The notes beneath the pieces are model-generated. The model made no database searches and was not told where the DNA came from. It saw nothing but the letters and a program-made list of their open reading frames with translations. From positions 1,224-65,223 of the forward strand of contig CAISIK010000061.1 of assembly GCA_903885375.1 (NCBI GenBank): DNA of 64,000 bases. The letters are read 5' to 3'. The stretch's first letter is position 1, and each line of letters starts with the position of its first letter. Shown here one piece after another: positions 38,294 to 60,715 of the stretch. The DNA is from an uncultured Pseudomonadota bacterium. GTDB lineage: Bacteria > Myxococcota_A > UBA796 > SXON01. Both the position numbers and the translations under genes were made by a program.

Positions 38294-38294
38294 G

Positions 38295-45570: not shown

Positions 45571-46802
45571 TGGGCGTCTACGAGTACGCAGGGCTCGACG
45601 CCGCCGGCAAGCCGGTGAAGGGAGTGGTCGAAGCGGACTCGCAGAAGACCGCGCGGGCGCGCCTGCGCAAGCAGGGGCTCTACCCCACCGACGTGAACGA
45701 GCAGAAGCAGGGGTCGGTGCGGGGTTCGGGCCTGTCGATGGAGATCGACTTCTCGAAGTGGTTCCAGCGCGTGAGCCCGCAGGACATCGCCACGCTCACC
45801 ACGCAGATGTCCACGCTCGTGGGCGCGAACATCCCCATGGTGGAGGCGCTCGGCGCGCTCACGGAGCAGACCGAGAACCCCAAGCTCAAGGCCGTGCTCA
45901 CCGAAGTCACCGGCAAGGTGAACGAAGGCTTCACGCTCGCGAAGGCGCTCCGAGCCCACCCGACGGTGTTCGACGACCTCTTCGTGAACATGGTGGATGC
46001 GGGCGAGCAGTCCGGCGCGCTCGAGCTCGTGCTCACCCGGCTGAGCGCCTACACCGAAGCGAGCGTGGCCCTGCGGGGCAAGCTCGTGACCGCGATCACC
46101 TACCCCATCCTGATGATGGTGGTGTCGTCGGGGTTGGTGCTTGGCCTGTTCACCTTCGTGATCCCGCGAATCAAGCGCATCTTCGACAGCTTCGGCAAGG
46201 AGCTGCCCATCCTCACGCGGTTCCTTTTCGGGGTGTCCAACCTCGTCACCGAGCACTACATCATCCTCGGCGTGGTGGTCTTCGGGAGCATCTTCGGCGC
46301 CCGGTGGTGGCTGAAGACGCCCGCAGGCCGCGCCTGGTGGCACCGCAAGCAGCTCACCGTCCCGGTTTTCGGGCCGTTGAACCGCACGGTCGCGGTGTCG
46401 CGTTTCTGCCGTACCTTGGGCACCCTCCTCGTTTCCGGTGTTCCCATCCTCACCGCGCTGGCCATCGTGAAGACGGTCGTCGGCAACGACGTGATCGCCG
46501 CCGCCGTGGAGGGCGCCGGCAAGAACATCGCCGAGGGACAGTCCATCGCGGTGCCCCTGAAACAAAGTGGGGAGTTCCCACCAATCGTGACACACATGAT
46601 CACCATCGGGGAAAAAACCGGCGAGCTCGAAGGTATGTTGACCAAGGTGGCCGACGCATACGACGCCGAGGTGGAAAACACCGTCAACTCGCTCACTTCC
46701 CTGCTCACCCCCATCCTGACCATCTTCATGGGTCTGGTGGTTGCCACCATCGCGCTCGGCATCCTCCTCCCCATGCTCCAACTCGCTTCCGCCGTCAAAT
46801 AA
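45570..46802 (+). CDS. gspF: Type II secretion inner-membrane platform protein
   Basis: 410 aa; duplicated GspF domain (GANIPMVEAL / SGVPILTAL; GEQSGALE / GEKTGELE). TGATG overlap with gspE. Confidence 0.95.
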   Translation: MGVYEYAGLDAAGKPVKGVVEADSQKTARARLRKQGLYPTDVNEQKQGSVRGSGLSMEIDFSKWFQRVSPQDIATLTTQMSTLVGANIPMVEALGALTEQTENPKLKAVLTEVTGKVNEGFTLAKALRAHPTVFDDLFVNMVDAGEQSGALELVLTRLSAYTEASVALRGKLVTAITYPILMMVVSSGLVLGLFTFVIPRIKRIFDSFGKELPILTRFLFGVSNLVTEHYIILGVVVFGSIFGARWWLKTPAGRAWWHRKQLTVPVFGPLNRTVAVSRFCRTLGTLLVSGVPILTALAIVKTVVGNDVIAAAVEGAGKNIAEGQSIAVPLKQSGEFPPIVTHMITIGEKTGELEGMLTKVADAYDAEVENTVNSLTSLLTPILTIFMGLVVATIALGILLPMLQLASAVK

Positions 46803-46812
46803 AGGAGAACCC

Positions 46813-47229
46813 ATGCGCAAGTCCCGCCTCGTCACCAACCGGAAGGGCATGTCCCTCGTGGAGATCATGGTCGTGATCGCCATCATCGGCGTGCTGATGA
46901 CCGTGATCGCCGTCAACGTGACCGGCTTCCTCGACGACGCCAACGTGTCCTCGACCAAGATCCAGATCAACAACCTCGAGAAGGCCCTCGTGGCCTACTC
47001 GGCGAAGCACAAGGGCAAGTACCCTTCGACCTCCGAAGGCCTCGACGCGGCCAAGAAGTACTTCCCGAACGACACCACGCCGCAGGATGCCTGGGGCAAC
47101 AACTTCCAGTACTACTCGCCCGGCACGCACGGCAAGCACGACTACGAGATCGTCTCGCTGGGCAAGGACGGCAAGGAGGGCGGCGAGGAGTCCGACGCCG
47201 ACATCTACAGCTGGGCGATGGCCGACTGA
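46813..47229 (+). CDS. gspG: Major pseudopilin
   Basis: 138 aa; AAGGAG RBS at 46802-46807. Prepilin motif KG/MSLVEIMVVIAIIGVL; GspG blocks DAWGNNFQY and SLGKDGKEGG. Confidence 0.95.
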   Translation: MRKSRLVTNRKGMSLVEIMVVIAIIGVLMTVIAVNVTGFLDDANVSSTKIQINNLEKALVAYSAKHKGKYPSTSEGLDAAKKYFPNDTTPQDAWGNNFQYYSPGTHGKHDYEIVSLGKDGKEGGEESDADIYSWAMAD

Positions 47230-47230
47230 C

Positions 47231-47935
47231 ATGAAGCGCGGGGTCACCCTCATCGAGATGATGGTGGTGATGGCGGTCATGGCCGTCGTCATCGCCGTGG
47301 GCGCGCCTGTGCTCACCTCGGTGTTCGACCTCCAGCAGCGCGGCGCGGCGAAGACCCTCGCCGATGCCTACCGGCTCCTCCAGACCGAGGCAATGCTCCG
47401 CAACGTGACCTTCCGCATCGCCTACAACCTCGATCGGTCCACGTGGAGCGTGGAGGTGGGCGATCCTTCGGCGCTCATCTTCACCGACCCGCGCAGCCGC
47501 GAGGAGTGGGAGGAGGAGCAGCAGCGGAAGTTGAAGCGTTTTACCAAGAAGGAGATCGAGTCGGGGGAGGCGAGCGACATCACCGATCAGGGCGGTCGCT
47601 TTTCCGGGCTCGAGGTTCCCGGCTTCCCCACCAAGGGCGAGCTTCCCGACAGTTGCCGCTTCGCCTACGTGTACACCCCGCAGTACGGCGATCCGGTCAC
47701 CCCTTCGGAGCAGATGCCCGAGGAAAAGGAAGACGAACGGGTGGTGTACAGCCACATCTTCCCCGACGGCACGATGGAGTTCACGGTGGTCCGCATCGTG
47801 GACGTAGAGGACCCGGCCGATGGCTACACGGTGGAGGTGGAGCCCTTTTCCGGGCAGGTGCGCCTGGAAACGGAGGAGGCCTCGATCGGCTCCAGCCTGT
47901 CGTGGATTCCGTCGGAGGCGCCGACCAGCCGATGA
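47231..47935 (+). CDS. gspH: Minor pseudopilin, GspH-like
   Basis: 234 aa; prepilin motif RG/VTLIEMMVVMAV. The name is assigned by operon position. Confidence 0.6.
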   Translation: MKRGVTLIEMMVVMAVMAVVIAVGAPVLTSVFDLQQRGAAKTLADAYRLLQTEAMLRNVTFRIAYNLDRSTWSVEVGDPSALIFTDPRSREEWEEEQQRKLKRFTKKEIESGEASDITDQGGRFSGLEVPGFPTKGELPDSCRFAYVYTPQYGDPVTPSEQMPEEKEDERVVYSHIFPDGTMEFTVVRIVDVEDPADGYTVEVEPFSGQVRLETEEASIGSSLSWIPSEAPTSR

Positions 47936-48582
47936 TCCGCCGCCACGCCTTCACCCTCATGGAGATCGTGATCTCCCTCGCGATCCTCGCCGTCTCGCTG
48001 ATGGTGCTCGTGGAGTCGCAGATCGCCAGCGTCGTCCAGACGATGGATGGGCAGCGCATCCTCACGGCCACCCAACTGGCGGAGGCCAAGCTGGCCGAGG
48101 TGCTGCTCACGCTCGAGATGGAAGGCTTCCAGGAGAGCGAGAAGGGCGAGGAGGGCACCTTCGAGGAGTTCGGCGACAACGGCGAGTACGGCGAGGTCGT
48201 GGACTTCGAGGGCGAGTACGACGACTACGGCTACGCCTGGACCGTGCGCAAAGTGGAGATGCAGCTCGGCGACATCGGCGGCACCCTCGAGGAGCTGCAG
48301 CAGTCGGGCGAGCTCGACCAGACCGGCACCGGAACGACCTCCTCGGCGGATGACGCCGGCATCGACTCCTCGATGTTCTCGAGTTTCCTGTCGCCGGACA
48401 CCATCAACGACACCCTCTCGCCCTGGATGCGGGAGGTGCGCGTGATCGTGTGGTGGGGCGACGATCCGGGGGAGCAGGAGGGGGAGTCCAGCTGCGAGAA
48501 CTGTGTCGAGATCGTGACCCACGTCTTCAACCCGAGCGGCAAGGTGTTCAACACCGAGTCCGGCGCGGCGGAGACTCCATGA
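47932..48582 (+). CDS. gspI: Minor pseudopilin, GspI-like, with acidic insert
   Basis: 216 aa; HA/FTLMEIVISLAIL; ATGA overlap. Acidic insert EGFQESEKGEEGTFEEFGDNGEYGEVVDFEGEYDDYG. Confidence 0.6.
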   Translation: MIRRHAFTLMEIVISLAILAVSLMVLVESQIASVVQTMDGQRILTATQLAEAKLAEVLLTLEMEGFQESEKGEEGTFEEFGDNGEYGEVVDFEGEYDDYGYAWTVRKVEMQLGDIGGTLEELQQSGELDQTGTGTTSSADDAGIDSSMFSSFLSPDTINDTLSPWMREVRVIVWWGDDPGEQEGESSCENCVEIVTHVFNPSGKVFNTESGAAETP

Positions 48583-49298
48583 TGCGGTCTCGCGCCGGCT
48601 TCTCGCTGCTCGAGGTGGTGGTGGCCCTCGGCATCATGGGCCTGATCGGGTTGATCACGTTCGAGACCATCGCCAGCGCGCTCGACACGCGCGATGTGCT
48701 GGAGGAGGAGGATGCCTCCAACCAGTCCGCGCGTGTGGCGCTCGATCGCCTCCGGCGCGACCTTCGGGTGGCCTACCTCACCACCAACACCAGCGCGGTG
48801 AACACCTACAAGACGCAGTTCATCGGCAAGAACGACGGTCCCGATTCATTGTGGTTCACCACCCTGTCGCACCACCGCCTGTTCCGCGAATCGCGCGAAT
48901 GCGACCAGACCGAGGTCACCTATTGGACCGAGGACGACCCCACGATGAAGGGCGCCAAGGTGCTCTTGAGGCGCGAGGCGCCGCGTATCGACAACGAGCC
49001 CGAGAAAGGCGGGCTCATCGCGCCGTTGGCCTACAACCTGAAGGCCGTGGAATACCGCTACATCAACCCGAAGACCAACGAGTGGTTGGAGGAGTGGGAC
49101 AGCACCGGGGTGGACCTCGCGAACAAGCTGCCGCGTGCCGTGCAGATCGCCCTGGTGTTCCTCGTGGCCGATCCGGACGATCCCGAAAAGCTCGTGGAGC
49201 GTCCGTACGCCACCACCGTGATGCTGTACTACGGCGACAAGCTCACCACCAAGGTGAGCAGCAGCGACAGCACGAGCAGCACCGAGGACAACAACTGA
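48579..49298 (+). CDS. gspJ: Minor pseudopilin, GspJ-like
   Basis: 239 aa; AG/FSLLEVVVALGI; ATGA overlap; GspJ-like RVALDRLRRDLR block. Confidence 0.65.
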   Translation: MMRSRAGFSLLEVVVALGIMGLIGLITFETIASALDTRDVLEEEDASNQSARVALDRLRRDLRVAYLTTNTSAVNTYKTQFIGKNDGPDSLWFTTLSHHRLFRESRECDQTEVTYWTEDDPTMKGAKVLLRREAPRIDNEPEKGGLIAPLAYNLKAVEYRYINPKTNEWLEEWDSTGVDLANKLPRAVQIALVFLVADPDDPEKLVERPYATTVMLYYGDKLTTKVSSSDSTSSTEDNN

Positions 49299-50521
49299 TG
49301 CCCTCGTTGCGCCAGCTGCGTCGCCAGCGTGCCCGGCGCTCCCGCGGTGGGATCGCGCTGCTCGTGGTGATCGCCGCGGTGATGTTCCTGACCGTGCTCG
49401 TCACCGACATCGACTTCGGCTCCCGCGTTCGTTTCGTGGCGGCCGCGCACAGCCGCGATGGCTCGCAGGCCTACTGGGTGGCCAACTCGGGCATGAGCCT
49501 CTACCGGCTCGTCCTGATGGGGAACAAGCAGCTCGGAAAATACCTCACCGGCTCGGGCAAGGACTTCTGCGAGGTGGTGGCGATGCAGGGCATCAGCTGC
49601 AGCGACCCGCTCCTCAGCTTCATCCCCTTCCTCAACACGGGCATGCTGCGGAGCATGCTCGTGAGCGGCGGCGACCTCGAAGAGGAAGACATCGAGGAGC
49701 TGAAGGCCACCGGCCAGGCCACCGAGGCCACCACCGACGAGTCCCGCGAGAAGTCGGCGTCCCGCTTCGGAAAGCAGGGGTTCCTCGACTTCAACGGTGA
49801 CTTCACCGCTACCGTGCAGGGCGAGGACTGCAAGGTGAACATTTCGGGCCTCGCCACGCACAGCGAGCCCCTGAGCGAGGACCCGCTCTACGAGATGCTC
49901 GAGCAGCTGATGTCGGGCGAGGAGAACGAAGCCTGGCTCCGCGAACGGAACCTCACGGCGCTCGAGCTCATCGGCAACCTCGCCGACTGGGTGGACTCCG
50001 ACTCCAACGTGGCCAGCGGCAACGGCAGCTACGAAGACAACCTCTACAGCGGCCTCGCCAGCCCGTACATGACCAAGAACGCCCCGTTCGACAGCACCGA
50101 GGAAATCCGGCTCGTGGAGGGGTGGCAGGACTCCGTGTACGAGCGCTGGGGCGACAAGCTCACGATCTACGGGTCGAAGAAGGTGAACATCACCTGCGCG
50201 GACAAGGAAGTCCTCAAGATGATGCTCCGGGCCTACGGGGGGCTCACCACGGACTCGCAAGTCGATGCGGCGCTCACCGCGCTCGAACAGTACAAGCTGC
50301 AGGGCAACGTGATCGCCACCTGTGATCAATTCTCCAAGGCCCTCACCGAGGAGCAGGGGATCACGATGTCGAGTGATTTTGCCGAGAAGTGCACCAATCG
50401 CAACACGGTGTACCGGGTCACCTCCACGGGGGTGGTGTCCAATGTGAACGTGAAGATCACCGCGGTGATCGATCAATCGAGTTCCGACGCGGGTCGCGTG
50501 AAATACTGGCTGGTGGAGTAA
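49298..50521 (+). CDS. gspK: Minor pseudopilin GspK-like
   Basis: 407 aa; hydrophobic N-terminus GIALLVVIAAVMFL without Glu+5. GspK-like SYEDNLY..PYMTKNAPFDSTEEIRLVEGW block. TGATG overlap. Confidence 0.7.
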   Translation: MPSLRQLRRQRARRSRGGIALLVVIAAVMFLTVLVTDIDFGSRVRFVAAAHSRDGSQAYWVANSGMSLYRLVLMGNKQLGKYLTGSGKDFCEVVAMQGISCSDPLLSFIPFLNTGMLRSMLVSGGDLEEEDIEELKATGQATEATTDESREKSASRFGKQGFLDFNGDFTATVQGEDCKVNISGLATHSEPLSEDPLYEMLEQLMSGEENEAWLRERNLTALELIGNLADWVDSDSNVASGNGSYEDNLYSGLASPYMTKNAPFDSTEEIRLVEGWQDSVYERWGDKLTIYGSKKVNITCADKEVLKMMLRAYGGLTTDSQVDAALTALEQYKLQGNVIATCDQFSKALTEEQGITMSSDFAEKCTNRNTVYRVTSTGVVSNVNVKITAVIDQSSSDAGRVKYWLVE

Positions 50522-52724: not shown

Positions 52725-54047
52725 ATGATCCGCTGGGCGCTTCTGTTGGCCGGCTGTGCGGGTGCTTCGCTCCTCGGCCTCGCGTTTGGCTTCTACGCCA
52801 CCTTCCCCTCCGAAGAGGCGGCGACCTACGCCGAATACGAGTTCCACCACCGCAATCGCGACTACGCGATGGAGGTCGGCGACGTCTCGCCGTGGTGGAT
52901 TCCGGGTGTTCGCGCCACCGACGTCACGATCTACACGGTGAAGCGCGGTCGGCGCACGAAGGACGTGCCCAAGCCCGGCCTCGAGCGTACGCCGATGCTC
53001 AAGCTCGATTCGCTCGGGGTTCGCGCCCAGGTGCTCCCGCTCCTGATGGGCAGGGAGAGCTACGGGTTCAGCGCGGCGCTGATCGGTGGCACCGTGGCAG
53101 GCCACTTCGCGCAGGGGGATGCCGGCATCGACCTCTCCTTCGCCGCGTCGGGTCTCGACCTCACGCAGATGCCGATCGAGAAGGACAACGTGATCGTCCA
53201 CCTCGGCGGCACCCTTTCCGGAAAGAGCGACCTTTCGCTCGACGCCGAGGACGTGCAGAACTCCACCGGCTCGCTCTCCTTCTCCTTCGATGGCCTGAAG
53301 CTCGACGAGGGCACGAAGGTCATGGGCATCGCGCTCCCGGTCGTCACCTTCGCCACGGCGGCCGTAAAACTCGACGCCACGGAGGGCAAGCTCGTGGTGA
53401 GCGAGGGCACGTTCGACGGCGATGTGCTCGACATGACGCTGGTGGGCGACATCGCGTTGAACAAGAAGCTCGCGCGGAGCCGCAACCGCCTGGAGCTGAT
53501 GGTCACGCTTCCCGAAGACCTCGACCGCCTCGCGAAGATCGCGCCGCTGATGAAACGGGCGCGTGATTCCGAAGGCACCTACCACTTCAACATCGGCGGA
53601 ACGATCCTGAGCCCGACGTTCCGCGCCGGGAAAGCGGCGGCCGGCGGCCTCGCCAGCAGCGACGAGCCGGGCGGATCGCGCATCGGTGGGCTCGGGCCGG
53701 CGATGGGGGAGGATGAGGCGGGCGACGCCAATCCGGATGACGCGCGCGAGGAGCGGCGGAAGCGTCGCGAGGAGCGCATCAAGGAGCGCCGCGAGCGCCT
53801 GCGGAAGCGCCGCGAGGAGGCCGCGGCGAACGGGGGAGGGGGTGCCATCGGCGATGAGCACGACGAGGAGCCGGTGGGCGAGGACATGGAGGAGCCTCGG
53901 ATCGGTCGCCGTCCCCGCGCCAACATGGGCGAAGAGGACGTGGAACAGGGCGACTTCGACATGGGCCGCGGGCCCCCGCAGATGGACATGCCCGACATCG
54001 GCCCTCCCGGCAACGAAGGGCCTGCGGAGGACTTCGAGGAGCAGTAG
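52725..54047 (+). CDS. gspN: GspN-like protein with long charged C-terminal tail
   Basis: 440 aa; the start abuts the gspM stop. N-terminal TM, a GspN-like body (~300 aa), then the tail EERRKRREERIKERRERLRKRREE... and an acidic end. Confidence 0.6.
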   Translation: MIRWALLLAGCAGASLLGLAFGFYATFPSEEAATYAEYEFHHRNRDYAMEVGDVSPWWIPGVRATDVTIYTVKRGRRTKDVPKPGLERTPMLKLDSLGVRAQVLPLLMGRESYGFSAALIGGTVAGHFAQGDAGIDLSFAASGLDLTQMPIEKDNVIVHLGGTLSGKSDLSLDAEDVQNSTGSLSFSFDGLKLDEGTKVMGIALPVVTFATAAVKLDATEGKLVVSEGTFDGDVLDMTLVGDIALNKKLARSRNRLELMVTLPEDLDRLAKIAPLMKRARDSEGTYHFNIGGTILSPTFRAGKAAAGGLASSDEPGGSRIGGLGPAMGEDEAGDANPDDAREERRKRREERIKERRERLRKRREEAAANGGGGAIGDEHDEEPVGEDMEEPRIGRRPRANMGEEDVEQGDFDMGRGPPQMDMPDIGPPGNEGPAEDFEEQ

Positions 54048-54131
54048 CGGCACGGAACGCCGCATGGCAAGATCCTGCGGCCAGACGCGGCGCCGGTCGA
54101 CCGGTTAGCCCTGCCGAGCCGTGGGAGTCCG

Positions 54132-55898
54132 ATGTTGCTGATCCTCGCCAGCTCCGCCCTTGCGGGCGTCCTCGTCAACGAGGTCTACTACGACCCCGAT
54201 CCCGAGGGTGACGACGGCAACGAGTGGATCGAGCTGTGCAACAACGGCGTCGAAACGGTCGACCTCAGCGGGTGGTGGATCGAGGCGGGCGGGTCCTCGT
54301 TCGACAGCTGCTTCGACATCGCCTCGGCCTCCATCGATGCCGGCGGCTACGTCCTGATCGGTGGCGCCAGCGGCCCGGTGCCCGGCAGCTTCTCGCCGAA
54401 CCTGCAGAATGGGGGGAGCGAGTCGGATGGCGTGCGCCTCGTGAACGCCGAAGGCGTGGTCGTGGACACCGTGCTCTACGACGAGGACAACACCAGCCTC
54501 CTCCCCGACGATCTGGGCGGCACCTCGAGCGCGCCTGCGCCCGACGTTTCGGGCGGCCACTCGATCGGCCGCTGGAACGGCAGCTCCGACTGTGTCGACA
54601 CCGATGTGTCCGGCGCCGACTTCATCGACTACGAAGTGCCGTCGGCCGGCGTGGCCAACCCCGCCCCCGCCACCGATCCGGGCGGCGATGCCGACTGCAC
54701 CGGGGCTCCCTCGGTGCGCGTGAACGAGTTCCTCTCCAACCCCGAGGGCAGCGACGACGACCTCGAGTGGGTGGAGCTCTACAACGGCGGCACCGAGTCC
54801 TTCGACCTCTCTGGTTGGGTGGTGCGCGGCGCCACGAAGTCCACCGGTGGGTCCTCCAACGTGATCCCCGAGGGCTCCCTGCTGGAAGCGGGCGCGTTCC
54901 TCGTCGTGGGCAACGGCGGCATCGGCACCATCTCCCTGGGCAACGGCACCGGCGGCGATGGGGTGTACCTCGAATGCAACGGCGCGGTGGTCGACACCAT
55001 CATCTACGGCACGAGCAACAGCGACGCGCTCCCCGATGAGTCCGGCGCGGTGGCCACGCTGCTGGGCGCCGTGCCCTCGGAAGGCGTGTCGCTCTCCCGC
55101 CGGGTGGACGGTGGGGACTCCGACGACCCCACGGCCGATTGGACCTCGTCGTCCGTGAACACCCCCGGCGCCGCCAACCAGACGCCCCAGTGCAACCCCG
55201 CGGGCGCCGAGGGCCTCAAGGTCAACGAGGTGATGTACGACCCCTCGAGTGATGACTCCACCAACGAGTTCGTGGAGTTGGTCAACACCGGCTCCGTGGC
55301 GATCCAGCTCGAAGGTTTCGTGCTGGAAGCGGCCAAGAGCTCCTGGGGCATCAACGCTACGCTTCCGGCCGGCGCGGTCATCGAGCCGGGCGAGTTCTTC
55401 GTGGTCGGCGGCGGCACCGTCACCAACGAGGACTACACCGCCTCCAAGCTGGACCTTGGCAATGGCACCGACGGGGATGGCGTGCGCATCCTCGATTGCA
55501 CCGGCGTGGTGCTCGACAGCATGCTCTACGGCGGCGCCACCGGCGATGGGCTCGAAGGAGACAACGGGTCGACCGACGTGGCCGACAAGGTGAGCGCCGG
55601 AACTTCGCTGGGTCGGTACCCCGACGGCGCCGACAGCGATGCCCACACCGACTGGTTCCCGTACTCCACCCCCACGCCGGGCGCCGCCAACGCCGATCCC
55701 GGCGCGGAGGACACCGGTTCGGGCTCCGACACCGGCAACGGCGGGGACACCGGTTCCGGGGGAGACACGGGCGTGTGCGGGCCCAGCGCCGAGCGTCCCG
55801 ATGGGGCGGCGTGCGCCACCACCGGGCTTCCGTTCGGGGGCCTGGAGGTGGTGGCCGCCGCGATCGTGGCGGTGCGTCGTCGTCGCCGCGCCGGTTGA
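54132..55898 (+). CDS. Secreted protein with three lamin-tail domains and a MYXO-CTERM-like C-terminal tag
   Basis: 588 aa; GGGAG RBS; short signal peptide. Three LTD repeats (VLVNEVYYDPDPEGDDGNEWIELCNNG; VRVNEFLSNPEGSDDDLEWVELYNGG; LKVNEVMYDPSSDDSTNEFVELVNTG). C-terminus as described in the next feature. Confidence 0.8.
   Translation: MLLILASSALAGVLVNEVYYDPDPEGDDGNEWIELCNNGVETVDLSGWWIEAGGSSFDSCFDIASASIDAGGYVLIGGASGPVPGSFSPNLQNGGSESDGVRLVNAEGVVVDTVLYDEDNTSLLPDDLGGTSSAPAPDVSGGHSIGRWNGSSDCVDTDVSGADFIDYEVPSAGVANPAPATDPGGDADCTGAPSVRVNEFLSNPEGSDDDLEWVELYNGGTESFDLSGWVVRGATKSTGGSSNVIPEGSLLEAGAFLVVGNGGIGTISLGNGTGGDGVYLECNGAVVDTIIYGTSNSDALPDESGAVATLLGAVPSEGVSLSRRVDGGDSDDPTADWTSSSVNTPGAANQTPQCNPAGAEGLKVNEVMYDPSSDDSTNEFVELVNTGSVAIQLEGFVLEAAKSSWGINATLPAGAVIEPGEFFVVGGGTVTNEDYTASKLDLGNGTDGDGVRILDCTGVVLDSMLYGGATGDGLEGDNGSTDVADKVSAGTSLGRYPDGADSDAHTDWFPYSTPTPGAANADPGAEDTGSGSDTGNGGDTGSGGDTGVCGPSAERPDGAACATTGLPFGGLEVVAAAIVAVRRRRRAG
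55770..55895 (+). other. C-terminal sorting-tag-like region (Cys / small residues / hydrophobic helix / Arg cluster)
   Basis: GVCGPSAERPDGAACATTGLPFGGLEVVAAAIVAVRRRRRAG, the last 42 codons of the LTD protein. Confidence 0.6.
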
Positions 55899-55955
55899 GG
55901 CTCGCCGGGAGGGATTCGGTTCATCGCGGGTGAATCGGGCGGTATAGTGGCGCCC

Positions 55956-56912
55956 ATGTGCTCGCTCCTCCTGCTCCTCCTCGCCGCCTGCCCCAACACA
56001 CCCGAAGAAAGTGGCCAGCCCACCGATACCGACACCGGCGGCGGCATCGTGGATGGCGACCCGACCACCATCCCGCTCAACGGCGTCTGCCCCCTCGATA
56101 CGCGCTGGGGCGGGTTCAAGGTCGAGGCAAACGTCGACTACTCGGCGATCGACGGGTACATCTCCAACGGTGTCGTGCCGGGAAACGTGATGGAGGAGGC
56201 GGGGAAGGAAGGGGACTGCCGCCTGATGAAGCGCGAGAACCCCTACTGCAACCCCGTTTGCGAGGCGGGCGAGACCTGCGACTTCGACGGCACCTGTCTC
56301 CCGTACCCGGAGAACCAGGACCTCGGCACGGTCACCATCGAGGGGCTCCGCAACGCGGTATCGATGGAGCCCTCGGAGTCCGGGAAGAAATACTTCTACA
56401 CCCAGCTCGATCCCCTCGCGTTCGATGCCGGGGTGCTCATCCAGTTGAAGACGGAGGGCGAGGCGTACGCACCGCTCACGCTCAACGGCGTGGGTGTGGT
56501 GCCGCTCGTGCCCACCTCGACGGAGTGGACCATCGCCGAAGGACAGGACCTCGCCGTCGCCTGGGATGCCCCCACGGACGCCGTGCGCAGCGAAATCTTC
56601 CTCACCCTGAACGTGGACCAGCACGGGCTCACCCCGCTCAACCTCGAGTGTGTCTTCGAGGATGATGGCGCCGCCACCGTGCCGGCCTCGGTCATCGATG
56701 CCCTCCTTAGCGCCGGCGTCACGGGCTACCCCACGGGCAAGGTGCAGCGCCGCACGGCTGACAAGGTCGCGCTCGGCGCGGGCTGCGCCGACTTCATCGT
56801 GGACTACTCCTGGGCCACCACGATCACGGTGTCGGGGCATACGCCCTGCAAGTCGGATCGGGACTGTCCCGACGGTGAAACCTGCGACATTCCCAACGAG
56901 ACCTGTGAGTGA
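55956..56912 (+). CDS. Cys-rich hypothetical lipoprotein
   Basis: ATG 55956 (MCSLLLLLLAAC lipobox; alternative GTG 55947). D/T/G linker, then Cys-rich patches YCNPVCEAGETCDFDGTCLPYP and PCKSDRDCPDGETCDIPNETCE. Confidence 0.6.
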   Translation: MCSLLLLLLAACPNTPEESGQPTDTDTGGGIVDGDPTTIPLNGVCPLDTRWGGFKVEANVDYSAIDGYISNGVVPGNVMEEAGKEGDCRLMKRENPYCNPVCEAGETCDFDGTCLPYPENQDLGTVTIEGLRNAVSMEPSESGKKYFYTQLDPLAFDAGVLIQLKTEGEAYAPLTLNGVGVVPLVPTSTEWTIAEGQDLAVAWDAPTDAVRSEIFLTLNVDQHGLTPLNLECVFEDDGAATVPASVIDALLSAGVTGYPTGKVQRRTADKVALGAGCADFIVDYSWATTITVSGHTPCKSDRDCPDGETCDIPNETCE

Positions 56913-58417
56913 TGCGCGGGCTCCTGCTGGTCCTCGTGGGCTGCCCCTCGGGCACGCTGGAGGTGGGCGAGACGGGTGAGCGCGGCCGGGACTCGGGCGG
57001 CGTGGACTCCGGCACCGACACCGCCGATACGGGGGTTGACCCGTCCCTCTGCGACTCCCTCACGCCGCTTCCGCTGGACCGCCCTCGCTCCCTCGGTACC
57101 TTCACCAACGGGGAGGACTTCACGTTCAACGAGGATGGCCAGCACGTGAGCGTGGATGCCCAGGGCAACCTCGTGGGAATCACGATCGATGGCACGCAGC
57201 AGCTCCTGTACCCGGGCCTCGGCACCACGGCCGGCATCCACATGCTTCCGGACGGCTCCGTGGTCTACGCCGACGTGCTGAACAACACCGTGGTGAACGT
57301 CGACTATCGAACGGGCGACTTCCGGATCATCGCTGCGGGCCTCTCCTACCCCAACGGTCTCGACGTGGGTCGGGACGGGATGGTGTACGTGGCCGAGACG
57401 GGGCGGGGTGGGCTCAGGCGCATCGACCCGGCCACCGGCGAGTCGGAGGTGATCGCGCTCGGGCTCGAGGCCCCCAACGGCGTGAGCTTCGGCCCAACCT
57501 GGGATGACCTCTACGTGGGCAGCTTCGGCGGCGGGGCGGTGTACCGCCTGCAGCGCGAAGCAAATGATACATGGTCCCGCCCGGAGGTCTTCGCGCTCAC
57601 TCCCGAGGCCTTGGCGCCGGTGAACGCGTGCGCCGAGGCGGCGCTGGGCACACGTTGCGCGGCCTCCTACTACGGCCTGGAGGGCGAATGTGTGTCATCA
57701 GAGCTTGGCTACAACGTCTGTGAAATCGTGTATGACACACCAGCATGTGTCGGGCTCGCCGTGGGTGATTCATGCGTCACTGAACTTGGGCAGCAGAGCA
57801 TCGAGTCGATCTGTGTGGAGACCAGCGCGGTGGAGGGCGCGTTCTGCGCCTCGGCGCCGGCCGAGCTCGTCGAGCCGTGCGCGGGGAACGAGCAGGGCTC
57901 GCCATGCCGCCTCGACGATGGAACCCTCGCCACCTGCACCCCCACCTTTGAAGGGGTCAACATCTGCTACCCGCAGGCCACCGACTACTCGGAGTACACC
58001 GAGCCCTGCGTGGACCAGGCGCTGGGCGCCGAATGTACCGTGGAAAGCTGGACGTATCCGGTGCATGGCGTTTGCCAGGATGGGTCGACATTCGGCATCC
58101 CGGGCAATTTCTGCTGGACTGCACCCTCGCTCGGCGGTGAGTTCGGAATGCTCGACGGCCTGAACGTGGACGTGTGCGGAAACGTGTACGCCACGGCCTA
58201 CATCGCGGGGCACGTGTACCGGTGGTCGGCCGCCGGCACCGAGCCCGAGCTCGTGGTCGACGTGCGCAGCTCCTGGATTCCGAACCTCCACTGGGGCAAC
58301 GGCGTGGGCGGCTGGGAGAAGAACGTGCTGTACATGGCCGATCGGCAGAGGGGAGGGGTCTTCCCCCTCGACGTGGGCGTCGAAGGGCACGGCGAAGCCT
58401 ACGAGGTGGCGCCGTGA
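56912..58417 (+). CDS. Lipoprotein, SMP-30/gluconolactonase/LRE-like beta-propeller with inserted Cys-rich repeats
   Basis: ATG 56912 (TGATG overlap; lipobox LVLVGC). Propeller-blade motifs SYPNGLDVGRDGMVYVAE, EAPNGVSFGP, LYVGSFGGGAVYRL, GNVYATAYIAGHVYRW. A 16-Cys insert lies at 57629-58114. Confidence 0.7.
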   Translation: MRGLLLVLVGCPSGTLEVGETGERGRDSGGVDSGTDTADTGVDPSLCDSLTPLPLDRPRSLGTFTNGEDFTFNEDGQHVSVDAQGNLVGITIDGTQQLLYPGLGTTAGIHMLPDGSVVYADVLNNTVVNVDYRTGDFRIIAAGLSYPNGLDVGRDGMVYVAETGRGGLRRIDPATGESEVIALGLEAPNGVSFGPTWDDLYVGSFGGGAVYRLQREANDTWSRPEVFALTPEALAPVNACAEAALGTRCAASYYGLEGECVSSELGYNVCEIVYDTPACVGLAVGDSCVTELGQQSIESICVETSAVEGAFCASAPAELVEPCAGNEQGSPCRLDDGTLATCTPTFEGVNICYPQATDYSEYTEPCVDQALGAECTVESWTYPVHGVCQDGSTFGIPGNFCWTAPSLGGEFGMLDGLNVDVCGNVYATAYIAGHVYRWSAAGTEPELVVDVRSSWIPNLHWGNGVGGWEKNVLYMADRQRGGVFPLDVGVEGHGEAYEVAP

Positions 58418-59037
58418 GCGGAGCCTCGCTCGCCTCGATGCTCTTGGCTCCGGGCGCCAGCCTTTCCGACGTTGCCGCCCTCCTCGATGGCCTCGACCAC
58501 GCGGGACGCCGGGCCGCCGTGGAGGCCTGCGGGTTGGCCGAGCTGGGGCGCCTGTACGAGCTGGCCGCGGCGTCCGACCCCATCACCGCCGCCCACTTCG
58601 TCGGCGCGGGGGCGCCCCTGCACCCCACCGTGCACGATGGCTGGAACTCGTTGCCGCTCCCCGCGTTCGGGCGGCGGTTCCAGAAGGTGTTCTGCCGGCC
58701 CGAGCCGGGCGGGCCGGACCGCATCTTCGGCTACAACGAGGGCGGGGCCCGTTGGCTCATCGGCCCGGGCTACTTCCAGCTCGTGCCTACCGCCGGCAAC
58801 GCCGAGTTCGAAGCGCGCGGGGCCTGGGTGGTGGACTACTTCAAGGTGCCCGACGGGCCCGTGCCGGCGTCCTGGCCGTGGGTGGTGCCCAACTGGGTCG
58901 GCCCGCAGGTGCTCGTTTACAACGGCACCCGCGACTTCATGCGCAAGGTGAGCGAGCACGTGAGCGTGGGCAAGCCGTGGTCGCGGCTCGGCGAGCTGCC
59001 CTTCTGCTTCGTGCTGGTCCGGCGGCCGGAGGCGTAG
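58414..59037 (+). CDS. Hypothetical protein
   Basis: GTG 58414 forms a GTGA overlap with the upstream stop (alternative ATG 58438). About 207 aa, genome-like codon usage, no family confidently recognised. Confidence 0.45.
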   Translation: MSGASLASMLLAPGASLSDVAALLDGLDHAGRRAAVEACGLAELGRLYELAAASDPITAAHFVGAGAPLHPTVHDGWNSLPLPAFGRRFQKVFCRPEPGGPDRIFGYNEGGARWLIGPGYFQLVPTAGNAEFEARGAWVVDYFKVPDGPVPASWPWVVPNWVGPQVLVYNGTRDFMRKVSEHVSVGKPWSRLGELPFCFVLVRRPEA

Positions 59038-59054
59038 GCAGCTCCCCCGAGGTG

Positions 59055-59098
59055 GGTCGCGGCGCGGCTTCCCGGCCCGGCGGCAAACCGCCGCGACC
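59055..59098. terminator. GC-rich inverted repeat in a convergent gap (candidate bidirectional terminator)
   Basis: GGTCGCGGCG (59055-59064) and CGCCGCGACC (59089-59098) form a 10-bp perfect stem with a 24-nt loop. It fills the 61-nt gap between convergent genes. Confidence 0.35.
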
Positions 59099-59803
59099 TC
59101 AGCTTGCCGGCACCCGGAGCGCGGCCCGCATCTCCGCTGCCAGGCCGCGGAAGGGCTCGGGTTGGAGGACCGGCTCGCCGTGGCCGAAGACGGCGCCGAT
59201 CGGCGGTACACGTTCGAGCTCCTCGGCGAACCACCGGGCGAACGCCGGCCGGTCCTGCACCACCACGTTGCGACAGCCAAAACCGTTCACCGCGAGCCCC
59301 ACCCGGAAGTCGAGGAAACCGAGGAGCCAGGAGAGCGGCGGCTTGCCGAGGCTGTCGAGGTTCACGACGAGGTCGTTGAGGTACCAGAGGCCTCCCGCCG
59401 GCGTGGCGAAGTGGCCCACCACGTCGGGCCGCTTCACGTGCGGGGGCACGAGCAGCTCCACGCCGGCGGGGAGCCGCTCCACGAGCTCCGCCATGGGGCG
59501 GGGAGGCCGGCCGCGCACGGCTTTTGCCCCCACCCGGTCGAGCATCAGCTCCGGCGCGTAGAGCACCGCCTCCGGAAAACGCTCCTGGCCGCCCCGGACG
59601 CCGAGGCGGTGGTTGCCGTTCGGCGCGAGCAGCGAGGTGACCGTGCCGAGCTCCGCCAGCGCGTTCAGAAGGGAAGGCGCCACCTCGCCCGGCCCCATGC
59701 CGATGGCCACGCTCGAGGCGCTGCCCTGACCGAACCAGTAGGTCGCCCGGTAGAGGCGCAGGGTGGCATCCACGCAGGTCCAGGAGGAGGAGGGTTCATG
59801 CAT
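59099..59803 (-). CDS. Hypothetical protein (possibly DUF4336 / metallo-beta-lactamase-fold-like)
   Basis: 234 aa from ATG 59803 (MHEPSSSW). The rest of the 630-aa track ORF is Arg/Gly-rich and antisense to the EEP gene. The family assignment is only tentative. Confidence 0.5.
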   Translation of the reverse strand: MHEPSSSWTCVDATLRLYRATYWFGQGSASSVAIGMGPGEVAPSLLNALAELGTVTSLLAPNGNHRLGVRGGQERFPEAVLYAPELMLDRVGAKAVRGRPPRPMAELVERLPAGVELLVPPHVKRPDVVGHFATPAGGLWYLNDLVVNLDSLGKPPLSWLLGFLDFRVGLAVNGFGCRNVVVQDRPAFARWFAEELERVPPIGAVFGHGEPVLQPEPFRGLAAEMRAALRVPAS

Positions 59804-59854
59804 GCGCGGGTGTAGCTTCGGGTAGACTCCCACGCAGGGGCTGGGGGCGCAGAG

Positions 59855-60715
59855 ATGGCCGTTCGCGACACGCTGGTGGTGGTGGTGCTCCTCGGTTGCG
59901 ACGCCGAGGAGTCGCTGCCCGCAACGGGTTCGGTCCGCATGCTGAGCTACAATGTTCATGGCTTGCCATCTGGGATTACTGGCGATGATACACCGGCGCG
60001 TATCGCGCAGATCGCCCCCCTGCTCCCGGACTACGACCTCCTCGGCCTTCAGGAAGTCTGGATCGCCGAGGATCAGGCGGTGCTCACCGCCCAGTGCGAG
60101 CATCCTACGCAGGAGTACTTCGATGAACGACTCGATGCCGACCGGGCCTACGGCGCGGGGCTGAACCTGCTCGGGCCCGCGCCCACCCGGCTCGTGCACG
60201 AACAGCACTACACCCAGTGTTACGGCCTGCTCGACGGCGCGAGCGACTGTTTTGCCAGCAAGGGCTTCCAGCTCGTGCGCTTCGAGCTCGGCGCCGGTTC
60301 GGTCGACGTGTACAACAGCCACTTCGAAGCCGGAAGCGGCGAGGAGGATGCGGCGGCGCGCGCCAGCAACGTGGCGGAGCTGCTCGACGCGATGGCCGAG
60401 CTCTCGGGGGGGCGCGCCATCCTCTTCATGGGCGACACCAACCTCGATGGGGACGATCCGGCCGACGAGCCCATCCTCGACGCCCTCTTCGCCGCGGGGC
60501 TCGAGGATGCCTGCGACATCGTGGGCTGCCCCGAGCCCGGGCGCATCGACCGCTTCCTCCTTCGTGATGGCAACGACGTGCGCCTCCGGCCACACGACTG
60601 GAGCGTGGCCGACGGCTTCGTGGATGCGGGAGGCGTGCCGCTTTCGGACCACGATCCCATCGAGCTCTCGATCGATTGGGAGGTCCTGGTGCCCCCTGAC
60701 CAGCTTCCGCGATAG
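59855..60715 (+). CDS. Endonuclease/exonuclease/phosphatase (EEP)-family lipoprotein
   Basis: 286 aa; lipobox VLLGC. EEP motifs MLSYNVHGL, LLGLQEV, FMGDTNL, LSDHDP. Confidence 0.8.
   Translation: MAVRDTLVVVVLLGCDAEESLPATGSVRMLSYNVHGLPSGITGDDTPARIAQIAPLLPDYDLLGLQEVWIAEDQAVLTAQCEHPTQEYFDERLDADRAYGAGLNLLGPAPTRLVHEQHYTQCYGLLDGASDCFASKGFQLVRFELGAGSVDVYNSHFEAGSGEEDAAARASNVAELLDAMAELSGGRAILFMGDTNLDGDDPADEPILDALFAAGLEDACDIVGCPEPGRIDRFLLRDGNDVRLRPHDWSVADGFVDAGGVPLSDHDPIELSIDWEVLVPPDQLPR

What the first reader, a model, noticed from the sequence alone, without database searches (positions are those of the whole stretch)
55956..59037. Three further translationally coupled genes behind the T2SS: a candidate cargo/accessory cassette
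Seen: after the LTD gene come a Cys-rich lipoprotein (55956-56912), a beta-propeller lipoprotein (56912-58417) and a ~207-aa unknown protein (58414-59037). They are joined by TGATG and GTGA overlaps, and an inverted repeat follows at 59055-59098. The two lipoproteins share D/T/G-rich post-lipobox linkers and similar Cys-spacing motifs (..C.....G(E/D)(T/S)C......(T/E)C..). Inference: all four genes continue on the gsp strand and end at the first terminator-like structure after gspN. They may therefore be co-transcribed T2SS substrates or surface-assembly partners of the LTD protein. None has an assignable biochemical function.
Basis: partly seen in the sequence, partly recalled or inferred. Interest (0 to 1): 0.55.

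Follow-up and report, generated by a model that had tools for sequence, protein, structure and literature searches.

The report
Lipoprotein operon parked behind a T2SS
The three genes are real, but they and the preceding LTD gene form a separate operon built around a widespread, uncharacterised pair of myxobacterial envelope lipoproteins; it lies behind the type II secretion genes only in one narrow lineage, and its last protein is not secreted.

Summary
The ORFs, the TGATG and GTGA overlaps, both lipoboxes, the D/T/G-rich linkers and the 10-bp inverted repeat are all present as described. Three points fail. The quoted Cys motif matches neither protein. The inverted repeat folds no better than shuffled sequence and has no U-tract. 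Protein C has no signal peptide.

A (318 aa) belongs to a large family with no Pfam or NCBIfam model (1,532 clusters at 50% identity). It is a disulfide-rich all-beta lipoprotein. B is an NHL/SGL beta-propeller lipoprotein carrying four inserted 4-Cys repeats. C is a confidently folded helical plus beta-barrel protein from a separate family that occurs in unrelated contexts elsewhere.

Among 76 species-level genomes that carry A, a B-like propeller lies within 3 kb in 54. A PPDK_N-domain lipoprotein does so in 34, C in 10 and LTD in about 8. T2SS genes are adjacent in only 5. Two close relatives keep LTD-A-B-C without the T2SS, and one same-type T2SS lacks the cassette.

The unit is therefore a self-contained LTD-A-B-C operon that became linked to gspN once, in a shallow clade. 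T2SS-dependent surface display is plausible, mainly for the LTD protein with its MYXO-CTERM-like tail, but it is unproven. Biochemical function remains unknown.

The parts
52725..54047 (+). gspN, the last T2SS gene; the upstream boundary of the cassette
   Evidence: NCBIfam TIGR04411 T2SS_GspN_Lepto scores 147.2 bits against a cut-off of 50. It lies in the GspC-N run identified by Pfam.
54048..54131 (+). 84-bp gspN-LTD spacer. It holds a conserved GGTTAGCC box (54103-54110) and a GGGAG Shine-Dalgarno sequence (54123-54127).
   Evidence: The box and the SD are conserved upstream of the LTD start in T2SS-linked loci (L003, L006, L066) and in T2SS-less loci (L004, L005). No terminator-like or sigma-70-like site was found here, and Rfam gave nothing.
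54132..55898 (+). First gene of the cassette: an exported protein with three lamin-tail domains and a MYXO-CTERM-like tail (nt 55767-55895: Cys motif, TM helix, RRRRR)
   Evidence: Pfam PF00932 LTD, 3 stretches, 5.8e-49. The tail GCGP..PDGAACAT..LP..GLE + TM + RRRR is conserved in 6 relatives. There is a weak match to the C-terminus of NF045638, the myxosortase-dependent phytase. TIGR03901 was not hit.
55899..55955 (+). 57-bp LTD-A spacer with a conserved TATAGTGGCGCCCATG (55943-55958)
   Evidence: The same TATAGTGG..CATG precedes the A start in L004, L005 and L006. In L003, L005 and L006 the LTD stop lies only 6-8 nt from A's ATG.
55956..56912 (+). Gene A: a 318-aa disulfide-rich all-beta lipoprotein. 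Features: lipobox Cys12, D/T/G linker, 12 invariant Cys, invariant DxHG (codons 221-224, DQHG, nt 56616-56627) and RxT.D (R265, T267, D269), and Cys knots at nt 56247-56297 and 56847-56906.
   Evidence: No Pfam or NCBIfam family passes threshold. The family has 152 close hits and 1,532 50%-identity clusters. Invariant columns are listed. The AF2 model has mean pLDDT 86.7 and is all-beta. PDB matches are only generic FnIII/Ig with TM about 0.2.
56912..58417 (+). Gene B: a 501-aa lipoprotein. It is an NHL/SGL beta-propeller (nt 57053-57616 and 58127-58414) interrupted by four ~40-aa 4-Cys repeats (nt 57617-58126).
   Evidence: PF08450 SGL, 2.3e-14. PDB sequence hits are to PknD-derived 'Pizza' propellers and the PknD sensor domain. 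The insert is absent from about 55% of B-like homologues.
58414..59037 (+). Gene C: a 207-aa protein without a signal peptide, made of an N-terminal helical bundle and a beta-barrel. The GTG start overlaps B's stop, with a GAGGTGG SD at 58403-58409.
   Evidence: The family has 482 hits of about 200 aa with no Pfam domain. The start is supported by homologue N-termini. AF2 mean pLDDT is 94.5. PDB fold hits are weak and lipocalin/calycin-like (E about 1e-2). Contexts elsewhere are unrelated.
59055..59098 (.). Inverted repeat in the 61-bp gap between the convergent genes C and the 234-aa minus-strand gene
   Evidence: The arms are 10 bp and perfect, with a 24-nt loop. Folding energy is not above shuffles (z = 0.26), and no U-tract follows.
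59099..59803 (-). Convergent 234-aa gene of unknown function that bounds the operon
   Evidence: It is called as a gene on the public contigs. It has no Pfam or NCBIfam hit and is not conserved next to the cassette in relatives.

Best explanation
What is there. The three ORFs are genuine genes. Together with the preceding LTD gene they form a self-contained operon, LTD-A-B-C. In one shallow clade of uncultured freshwater Myxococcota this operon came to lie directly behind gspN.

The core pair. The core is an older and much more widespread A-B pair. A is a lipoprotein of an undescribed, disulfide-rich, all-beta family. B is an NHL/SGL beta-propeller lipoprotein, here carrying four inserted Cys-rich repeats.

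Inferred mechanism for A and B. Both are exported by Sec and lipidated on the lipobox Cys. Both are held on long acidic Asp/Thr/Gly stalks. They most likely act together as a heteromeric envelope or surface complex.

The LTD protein. It is anchored through a MYXO-CTERM-like C-terminal Cys tag. That class of protein needs the T2SS for surface display in Myxococcus xanthus. T2SS-dependent surface display of the LTD protein is therefore plausible by analogy. The same may hold for A and B, in the manner of pullulanase. This is not shown, and the cassette is not a T2SS component.

Protein C. C is a non-secreted helical plus beta-barrel protein. It comes from a separate, widely distributed family and joined the operon later.

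Shown versus inferred. Shown: gene structure, family membership or its absence, predicted folds, and synteny statistics. Inferred: lipidation, physical A-B interaction, surface location, use of the T2SS, and co-transcription.
For: - Gene reality and coupling.
- Lipoboxes invariant across the families.
- Twelve invariant Cys in A and sixteen Cys in B's insert fit an oxidising extracytoplasmic location.
- A-B partnership: a B-like propeller lies within 3 kb of A in 54 of 76 species-level genomes, 51 of them on the same strand. One A+SGL fusion protein exists as an uninterrupted ORF.
- Independence from the T2SS: gsp genes lie next to A in only 5 of 76 loci, plus the window and L082. L004 and L005 carry LTD-A-B-C behind divergently oriented genes. 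L083 has the same type of T2SS (GspN 59% identical) without the cassette.
- A single origin of the linkage: in the A tree the T2SS-less L004/L005 nest inside the T2SS-linked clade, and the sister clade has A-B-C only.
- A cassette-proximal control region: the GGTTAGCC box and SD are conserved whether or not a T2SS lies upstream.
- LTD tail: the Cys/TM/Arg architecture is conserved. MYXO-CTERM proteins need the T2SS, and the T2SS also carries lipoproteins such as pullulanase (PMC11980579; bioRxiv 10.1101/2023.06.07.544157).
- Neither A nor B has the +2 Lys that marks inner-membrane lipoproteins in M. xanthus (PMC3222651).
- C: no signal peptide and a confidently folded N-terminus. Its family of 482 hits sits in unrelated neighbourhoods. 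C lies near A in only 10 of 76 loci.
Against: - No direct evidence exists for lipidation, localisation, A-B binding or T2SS dependence.
- The fusion is a singleton from one 5-kb contig.
- TIGR03901 (MYXO-CTERM) does not hit the LTD tail even at E <= 1. Its motif (GCGP ... second Cys ... TM) differs from the published consensus.
- Within its clade the T2SS linkage is retained in 6 of 8 genomes. That could reflect selection for co-expression with the T2SS rather than mere history.
- T2SS substrates are usually unlinked to gsp genes, so the lack of synteny in distant genomes does not argue against export by the T2SS.
- C's start overlaps B's stop, and C always follows B in the 10 loci that have it. 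A functional tie between C and A-B cannot be excluded.
Confidence: 0.55

Rival explanations
1. LTD, A, B and C are a dedicated cargo or accessory cassette of this T2SS. They are transcribed with gspC-N from the gsp promoter and depend on it for export.
For: The genes share the gsp strand, with 84-bp and 57-bp spacers and two overlaps, and nothing resembling a terminator lies between gspN and C. The order gspN-LTD-A(-B-C) recurs in L003, L006, L007, L066 and L082. The linkage is retained in most members of the clade. The LTD tail belongs to the T2SS-dependent class.
Against: The cassette occurs without a T2SS in L004 and L005, where it is the first gene after divergent genes. The same type of T2SS occurs without the cassette in L083. 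A-B occurs in about 50 further genomes with no gsp neighbour. The conserved 5' region of LTD does not depend on gspN being upstream. C is not exported.
Confidence: 0.25
2. The adjacency has no functional meaning. A and B are periplasm-facing outer-membrane lipoproteins delivered by Lol. They form a generic envelope module unrelated to type II secretion, and the position behind gspN is a historical accident in one lineage.
For: 69 of 76 A loci have no gsp neighbour. The linkage arose once and was lost once. Downstream synteny (GT2, FabA-like, KAS genes) is kept in the window, L003, L004 and L005 whether or not the T2SS is present. Neither A nor B carries the +7 Ala signal described for matrix lipoproteins in M. 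xanthus.
Against: The first gene of the same operon has a C-terminal tag of a class that needs the T2SS. The linkage survived in 6 of 8 sampled genomes of the clade. The long acidic stalks and heavy disulfide bonding are also typical of surface-displayed proteins, so they do not decide the matter.
Confidence: 0.3
3. A and B form an extracytoplasmic enzyme system. B is a metal-dependent SGL-type hydrolase (lactonase, esterase or phosphotriesterase-like). A is its substrate-binding or regulatory subunit. The PPDK_N-domain lipoprotein found beside them in many genomes is a third catalytic partner, which this lineage lacks.
For: B passes the PF08450 threshold. A has invariant polar residues (Q121, Y146, D221, H223, R265, T267, D269) that suggest a binding or active site. 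A PPDK_N lipoprotein lies within 3 kb of A in 34 of 76 loci.
Against: B's best sequence matches among solved structures are non-enzymatic NHL/PknD sensor propellers. No Glu/Asn/Asn/Asp set is conserved at 85% or more across 36 B-like proteins. The window has no PPDK_N homologue. An ATP-grasp domain outside the cytoplasm has no obvious ATP supply.
Confidence: 0.2
4. A and/or B are T2SS assembly factors, for example a pilotin-like lipoprotein for the GspD secretin.
For: They are lipoproteins encoded at the distal end of a gsp cluster.
Against: A and B occur without any nearby T2SS in most genomes, and a T2SS of the same type lacks them. Their sizes (318 and 501 aa) and folds are unlike the small pilotins. 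A pairs instead with propellers, or with an Ig/beta-helix pair.
Confidence: 0.03

Closest known systems
T2SS-exported surface lipoproteins encoded beside their gsp genes: PulA with the pul cluster of Klebsiella oxytoca, and SslE/YghJ with the E. coli T2SS-beta operon
   Same: The proteins have an N-terminal lipobox, the genes are co-located with gsp genes, and the T2SS is proposed to carry folded, lipidated proteins to the cell surface. PMC11980579 cites pullulanase as the precedent. The details on SslE rest on my own knowledge.
   Different: PulA and SslE are characterised enzymes with demonstrated T2SS dependence. Here no activity or export has been shown. The linkage is confined to one shallow clade, and the cassette also exists without a T2SS.
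MYXO-CTERM proteins (for example TraA) processed by the myxosortase MrtX and displayed through the T2SS in Myxococcus xanthus
   Same: The LTD protein ends in a short Cys-containing motif, a hydrophobic helix and an Arg cluster. This is the tripartite architecture that defines the class.
   Different: The HMM TIGR03901 does not match. The motif is GCGP followed about 12 residues later by a second Cys, not the published GCGC-type signature. TraA is not encoded next to gsp genes. No myxosortase gene was looked for in the window.
SMP-30/gluconolactonase/LRE (PF08450) and NHL/PknD-type six-bladed beta-propellers
   Same: B matches PF08450 above threshold and aligns to PknD-derived propeller blades.
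   Different: B is a lipoprotein with a 170-residue insert of four 4-Cys repeats. The catalytic metal ligands of SGL enzymes are not demonstrably conserved.
GlyGly-CTERM/rhombosortase clients of the Vibrio and Shewanella T2SS, some of which (Xds, ExeM) contain a lamin-tail domain
   Same: These are exported LTD-containing proteins with a C-terminal sorting tag and T2SS-dependent surface retention. The LTD content of Xds and ExeM is from my own knowledge and was not checked here.
   Different: The tag and sorting enzyme differ. Xds and ExeM carry nuclease domains, whereas the window's protein is three LTDs only. A literature search for 'lamin tail domain' plus 'type II secretion' returned no paper.
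Lipocalin/calycin-type eight-stranded beta-barrels (for protein C)
   Same: The C model has an eight-strand barrel. Its best PDB matches are lipocalins, nitrophorins, NHBA-C and designed barrels.
   Different: All matches are weak (E >= 8e-3, TM 0.3-0.39). C has an extra N-terminal helical bundle and no sequence match to any solved structure.

Membership tests
Bacterial lipoprotein (Lgt/LspA substrate) | A hydrophobic signal peptide ending in a lipobox [LVI][ASTVI][GAS]C | tested here: met
   A has MCSLLLLLLAAC and B has MRGLLLVLVGC. The Cys is invariant in 24/24 A homologues and present in at least 85% of B-like proteins. C has no such sequence.
Bacterial lipoprotein (Lgt/LspA substrate) | Actual diacylglyceryl modification and signal peptidase II cleavage | not testable with these tools
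   This needs globomycin sensitivity, palmitate labelling or mass spectrometry.
T2SS substrate or T2SS-linked cargo cassette | Delivery to the periplasm by a Sec or Tat signal | tested here: met
   LTD, A and B have N-terminal signal sequences. This is not met for C.
T2SS substrate or T2SS-linked cargo cassette | Conserved genetic linkage with gspC-N | tested here: inconclusive
   The cassette is linked in the window, L003, L006, L007, L066 and L082. It is unlinked in L004 and L005 and absent from L083. Only 5 of 76 A loci overall have gsp neighbours.
T2SS substrate or T2SS-linked cargo cassette | Export or surface exposure abolished in gsp mutants | not testable with these tools
   This is an experiment. 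The source organism is an uncultured MAG.
MYXO-CTERM sorting signal (TIGR03901), for the LTD protein | A tripartite C-terminus: a Cys-containing signature, a TM helix and an Arg-rich cluster | tested here: met
   The tail reads ...GVCGPSAERPDGAACATTGLPFGGLEVVAAAIVAVRRRRRAG and is conserved in six relatives.
MYXO-CTERM sorting signal (TIGR03901), for the LTD protein | A match to the family HMM | tested here: not met
   An NCBIfam scan of the 59-aa tail at E <= 1 returned only the tail of NF045638 (16 bits) and a chance NPXTG hit. The authors note that lineage-specific forms need custom models.
SMP-30/gluconolactonase/LRE-like (PF08450), for B | A Pfam score above the gathering threshold | tested here: met
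   54.1 bits against a cut-off of 26.3, E = 2.3e-14.
SMP-30/gluconolactonase/LRE-like (PF08450), for B | Conserved divalent-metal ligands of the catalytic centre | tested here: inconclusive
   Residues conserved at 85% or more in 36 B-like proteins are mostly Gly, Tyr, Phe and Cys, plus D415, D420 and R437. The Asn of the two PNG motifs is not conserved at that level.
Myxococcal Cys-rich repeat (TIGR04201), for A's C-terminus | An HMM score above the curated cut-off | tested here: not met
   18.1 bits for the whole protein and 20.7 bits for the 29-aa tail, against a cut-off of 25.
Intrinsic (rho-independent) terminator, for 59055-59098 | A stable GC-rich hairpin followed directly by a U-tract | tested here: not met
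   The hairpin exists but is no more stable than shuffles (z = 0.26). The downstream sequence CTCAGCTTGCCGG has no T run. The consensus scan did not report it.
Lipocalin/calycin fold, for C | Significant structural similarity to solved lipocalins | tested here: inconclusive
   Best Foldseek E-values are 8e-3 to 1e-1 with TM 0.3-0.39, and none reaches E <= 1e-3.

The most novel reading that the evidence does not exclude
Protein A defines a large, undescribed Myxococcota family. It would act as the common, obligatory partner of alternative exported effectors. One partner set is an NHL/SGL propeller, often with an extracytoplasmic PPDK_N/ATP-grasp-like lipoprotein. The other is an Ig/ASH protein plus a beta-helix lipoprotein. 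On this reading A is a new kind of envelope adaptor that presents or delivers lipoprotein effectors at the cell surface. In this clade it would have been wired directly to the T2SS and a MYXO-CTERM-like LTD protein.
Probability: 0.15. Interest if true: 0.65.

Novelty: new variant of a known kind. Interest (0 to 1): 0.35.

Why it matters
If the cassette proteins are T2SS clients, this would be a natural case in Myxococcota of N-terminally and C-terminally lipid-anchored surface proteins encoded in one operon behind their secretion machine. That would give a convenient handle on how the myxobacterial T2SS selects lipidated cargo.

Independently of the T2SS, the work defines two protein families with no Pfam or NCBIfam model. 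A has at least 1,532 clusters at 50% identity, and C has at least 482 hits. It also shows a strongly conserved A-B partnership whose function is unknown.

As it stands, the finding is an annotation-level result. It gives a clearer operon boundary, corrects the description of the third protein, and yields a testable gene-pair hypothesis. It does not reveal a new mechanism.

Tried and rejected
- Family searches. Pfam and NCBIfam gave nothing above threshold for A, for C, for B's Cys-rich insert or for the convergent gene. Profile searches of A and C against PDB sequences gave nothing meaningful.
- Fold searches. Foldseek for A returned only generic tandem FnIII/Ig matches (TM about 0.2). For C it returned only weak barrel matches. 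Neither assigns a function.
- RNA and signal scans. Rfam on 53900-59900 gave no credible hit. The promoter and terminator consensus scan was uninformative, with 0 promoters and terminators at the shuffle level.
- Sigma-54 reading. I considered TGGCAAGATCCTGC (54065-54078) as a sigma-54 promoter. I rejected it because the GG-GC spacing is one base short of the consensus (my own reading).
- TGACA block. A TGACA-like block upstream of LTD lies 33-35 nt from the GGTTAGCC box. That is too far for a -35/-10 pair.
- Fusion P0311. This 602-aa apparent A+ThrE fusion was rejected as a frameshift artefact. An Arg/Ser-rich out-of-frame-looking stretch follows the A domain.
- EEP lipoprotein gene. I considered a link between the LTD protein and the downstream EEP lipoprotein gene, an ExeM/Xds-like split. 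I dropped it because the EEP gene is not near the cassette in any relative.
- Metagenome scan. The scan with GspN returned only two loci, so the T2SS-centred view of synteny rests on few genomes.
- First alignment. The first A alignment (A1) was too diverse for the locus scan. A narrower one (A2) worked.

Full report
**Context.** The window has about 70% G+C. It is nearly identical to contig CANJAN010000011.1 of MAG GCA_947472305.1, differing by 10 SNPs and one 30-bp indel over 17 kb. On the + strand a complete T2SS cluster runs from gspC (40076) to gspN (52725-54047):
- GspC, D, E, F, G, J, K and a PilM/FtsA-like GspL are identified by Pfam.
- GspN is identified by TIGR04411 at 147 bits against a cut-off of 50.

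Next comes a 588-aa protein with three lamin-tail domains (PF00932, 5.8e-49), and then the three genes of the finding.

**Checking the observation.**
- All three ORFs have coding-type codon-position G+C. Independent gene calls on the public contigs give the same 318, 501 and 207 aa products.
- The overlaps are exact. A's TGA (56910-56912) shares its A with B's ATG (56912-56914). B's TGA (58415-58417) overlaps C's GTG (58414-58416). A GAGGTGG Shine-Dalgarno sequence lies at 58403-58409.
- A starts MCSLLLLLLAAC and B starts MRGLLLVLVGC. The lipobox Cys is invariant in 24 aligned A homologues and conserved in at least 85% of 36 B-like proteins.
- Both mature N-termini are rich in Asp, Thr and Gly.
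- The inverted repeat has perfect 10-bp arms (59055-59064 and 59089-59098) and a 24-nt loop.

Three details do not hold:
- The Cys-spacing motif as quoted matches neither protein. A has two C-x2-GET-C-x5/6-C knots. B has four ~40-aa repeats with four Cys each.
- The hairpin is no more stable than dinucleotide shuffles (z = 0.26) and has no U-tract. What really bounds the operon is the convergent 234-aa gene that ends at 59099.
- C has no signal peptide.

**Protein A.**
- No Pfam or NCBIfam model passes threshold. The only hit is a sub-threshold match of the last 20 residues to the myxococcal Cys-rich repeat TIGR04201.
- The family is nevertheless large and well conserved. There are 152 close hits, all 'hypothetical' and all from Myxococcota-type MAGs. 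There are 1,532 clusters at 50% identity in the 1.84-billion-protein library, and nearly all are stand-alone proteins of 300-480 aa.
- Twelve Cys are invariant, together with Q121, Y146, W203, D221, H223, G224, R265, T267 and D269.
- AlphaFold2 gives a confident all-beta model (mean pLDDT 86.7). Its only PDB neighbours are generic tandem FnIII/Ig modules (TM about 0.2).

**Protein B.**
- B passes PF08450 (SGL) and aligns to PknD-type NHL propeller blades.
- Residues 236-405 are an insert of four 4-Cys repeats. About half of the B-like homologues lack it.
- No catalytic metal-ligand set is evident among the conserved residues.

**Protein C.**
- C belongs to a separate family of about 200-aa proteins: 482 hits, still 50% identical at rank 120, and no Pfam domain.
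- Its model is very confident (mean pLDDT 94.5). It shows an N-terminal helical bundle followed by an eight-strand barrel.
- PDB similarity is weak and lipocalin-like at best.

**Synteny.**
- A scan of one genome per species returned 75 loci encoding A. They include Enhygromyxa salina, Haliangium, Nannocystaceae, Polyangiaceae, Kofleriaceae and Bradymonadia.
- I searched all six frames of these loci with HMMs built from the locus proteins. The table gives the number of the 76 A loci with each neighbour within 3 kb of A.

| Neighbour within 3 kb of A | Loci (of 76) |
|---|---|
| B-like propeller | 54 (51 on the same strand) |
| PPDK_N-domain lipoprotein (PF01326, 6.6e-20) | 34 |
| Ig/ASH protein plus beta-helix lipoprotein (an alternative pair) | 14 (none of these has B) |
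| C | 10 |
| LTD protein | about 8 |

- gsp genes lie next to A only in L003, L006, L007 and L066, besides the window's own contig. A metagenome scan with GspN added L082, which runs gspL-M-N-LTD-A to the contig end. It also added L083, a same-type T2SS (GspN 59% identical) with nothing related downstream.
- L004 and L005 carry LTD-A-B-C directly after divergently oriented genes. They share the window's downstream neighbours: a GT2 glycosyltransferase, a FabA-like gene and ketosynthase genes.
- A neighbour-joining tree of A places L004 and L005 inside the T2SS-linked clade. The sister clade (L008, L009, L011, L012) has A-B-C only.
- The simplest history is as follows. A-B is old. C was added in the ancestor of the two clades. 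LTD and the position behind gspN were acquired once. The T2SS linkage was then lost once.

**Operon structure.**
- In relatives the LTD stop lies 6-8 nt from A's ATG, and a TATAGTGG..CATG string is conserved there.
- The A-B and B-C junctions are always overlapping or less than 30 nt apart.
- Upstream of the LTD start, a GGTTAGCC box (window 54103-54110) and a GGGAG Shine-Dalgarno sequence are conserved in both T2SS-linked and T2SS-less loci.
- The cassette therefore brings its own 5' region. In L004 and L005 it must have its own promoter.
- Read-through from gsp in the window remains possible. Nothing terminator-like lies between gspN and LTD.

**Relation to the T2SS.**
- The LTD protein ends in GVCGPSAERPDGAACATTGLPFGGLEVVAAAIVAVRRRRRAG. 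This is a Cys motif, a TM helix and an Arg cluster, and it is conserved in relatives.
- That is the architecture of MYXO-CTERM. In M. xanthus, proteins carrying it are cleaved by myxosortase and need the T2SS to reach the surface. The same paper likens this route to T2SS transport of lipoproteins such as pullulanase (PMC11980579).
- The TIGR03901 HMM does not match this tail, so membership is architectural only.
- A and B lack the +2 Lys of M. xanthus inner-membrane lipoproteins and the +7 Ala of matrix lipoproteins (PMC3222651). This is weakly consistent with an outer-membrane location.
- Nothing here tests export.

**A-B partnership.** Beyond the adjacency in 54 of 76 genomes, one protein (P0351, 671 aa) fuses an A domain through a Pro/Glu linker to an SGL propeller. 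It is an uninterrupted ORF on its contig, but it is a singleton. I treat it as weak supporting evidence.

**Protein C elsewhere.** Its homologues lie in unrelated settings. One follows an MBOAT gene and an 844-aa unknown gene. One sits among fatty-acid oxidation genes. One is next to GGDEF and cobalamin adenosyltransferase genes. In MAG GCA_030684355.1 the A and C homologues are on different contigs. C is best read as a non-secreted protein recruited late to the 3' end of the operon.

**Verdict.**
- The interpretation as a T2SS cargo or accessory cassette is only partly supported.
- The thing is a self-contained LTD-A-B-C operon, built around a widespread and uncharacterised A-B lipoprotein pair. 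It lies behind gspN in a single shallow lineage.
- T2SS-dependent surface display is a reasonable hypothesis for the LTD protein and possible for A and B. It is wrong for C.
- The biochemical role is unknown. My best guess is a disulfide-stabilised surface or envelope binding complex on flexible stalks. An enzymatic role for the propeller is the main alternative.

Noticed in passing
L070:8037-10001 (also L021:11976-13991, L041:7663-9957, and 34 of 76 A loci): A lipoprotein of about 650-760 aa, with a signal peptide and lipobox, carries a PPDK_N / PEP-synthase ATP-binding domain (PF01326, 6.6e-20). It sits immediately next to A, often in the order B > PPDK > A or PPDK > A > B. An apparently exported ATP-grasp-type domain is odd. 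The window has no homologue.
   Followed up: partly
L022:10898-13658 (and 13 other loci, e.g. L013, L014, L015, L017, L076): In 14 genomes A is flanked by a HYDIN/ASH Ig-like protein of about 530 aa and a right-handed beta-helix lipoprotein of about 365-430 aa, not by a propeller. This arrangement is mutually exclusive with B.
   Followed up: partly
L084:2443-4458 (protein P0351): A single 671-aa ORF fuses an A domain, without its C-terminal Cys knot, through a PEPEPEP linker to an SGL propeller. It is a singleton from one 5-kb Logan contig.
   Followed up: yes
window 54103-54110 and 54065-54078: A GGTTAGCC box about 22 nt upstream of the LTD start codon is conserved in relatives whether or not gspN lies upstream. 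A second partly conserved block (TGGCA/TGACA...GCTG) lies 33-35 nt further upstream. It matches neither sigma-70 spacing nor sigma-54 spacing.
   Followed up: partly
window 59855-60715 (+): A 286-aa endonuclease/exonuclease/phosphatase-family protein has its own lipobox (VVVVLLGC). It lies 0.8 kb downstream of the cassette on the same strand and is not conserved near the cassette in relatives.
   Followed up: yes
window 59684 (inside the minus-strand gene 59099-59803): The public contig L002 has 30 extra bases here (CTCGCCCGCGGGGGGGCTGATCAGCAGAAG). It also has 10 SNPs relative to the window over 17 kb, so the window is a near-identical strain variant of GCA_947472305.1.
   Followed up: yes
L007:10911-13928: This T2SS-linked relative carries two tandem B paralogues (509 and 495 aa) between A and C.
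   Followed up: no
L078:4035-8609: A C homologue 70% identical to the window's has a start that abuts the stop of an 844-aa protein with no Pfam hit. That protein follows an MBOAT acyltransferase gene. This is a different tightly coupled context for the C family.
   Followed up: partly
L083:1-11311: A T2SS cluster of the same type (GspD-N, 56-87% identical to the window's proteins) has no LTD, A, B or C in the 8 kb downstream of gspN.
   Followed up: yes
window 37278-39839 (-): Directly upstream of gspC, on the opposite strand, lie a cyclic-nucleotide-binding protein (PF00027) and a 514-aa adenylate/guanylate cyclase-domain protein (PF00211).
   Followed up: no
window 44000-50000: The central T2SS genes have lower G+C (0.64-0.68) than most of the window (0.70-0.77).
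   Followed up: no
L033:12117-12797, L051:9820-11265 (-), L005:3268-8124 (-): LTD-domain proteins recur next to A-B modules in distant loci and in other orientations. One of them is a 1,620-aa ORF matching the LTD profile (built from the cassette LTD proteins) that lies divergent from the L005 cassette.
   Followed up: no
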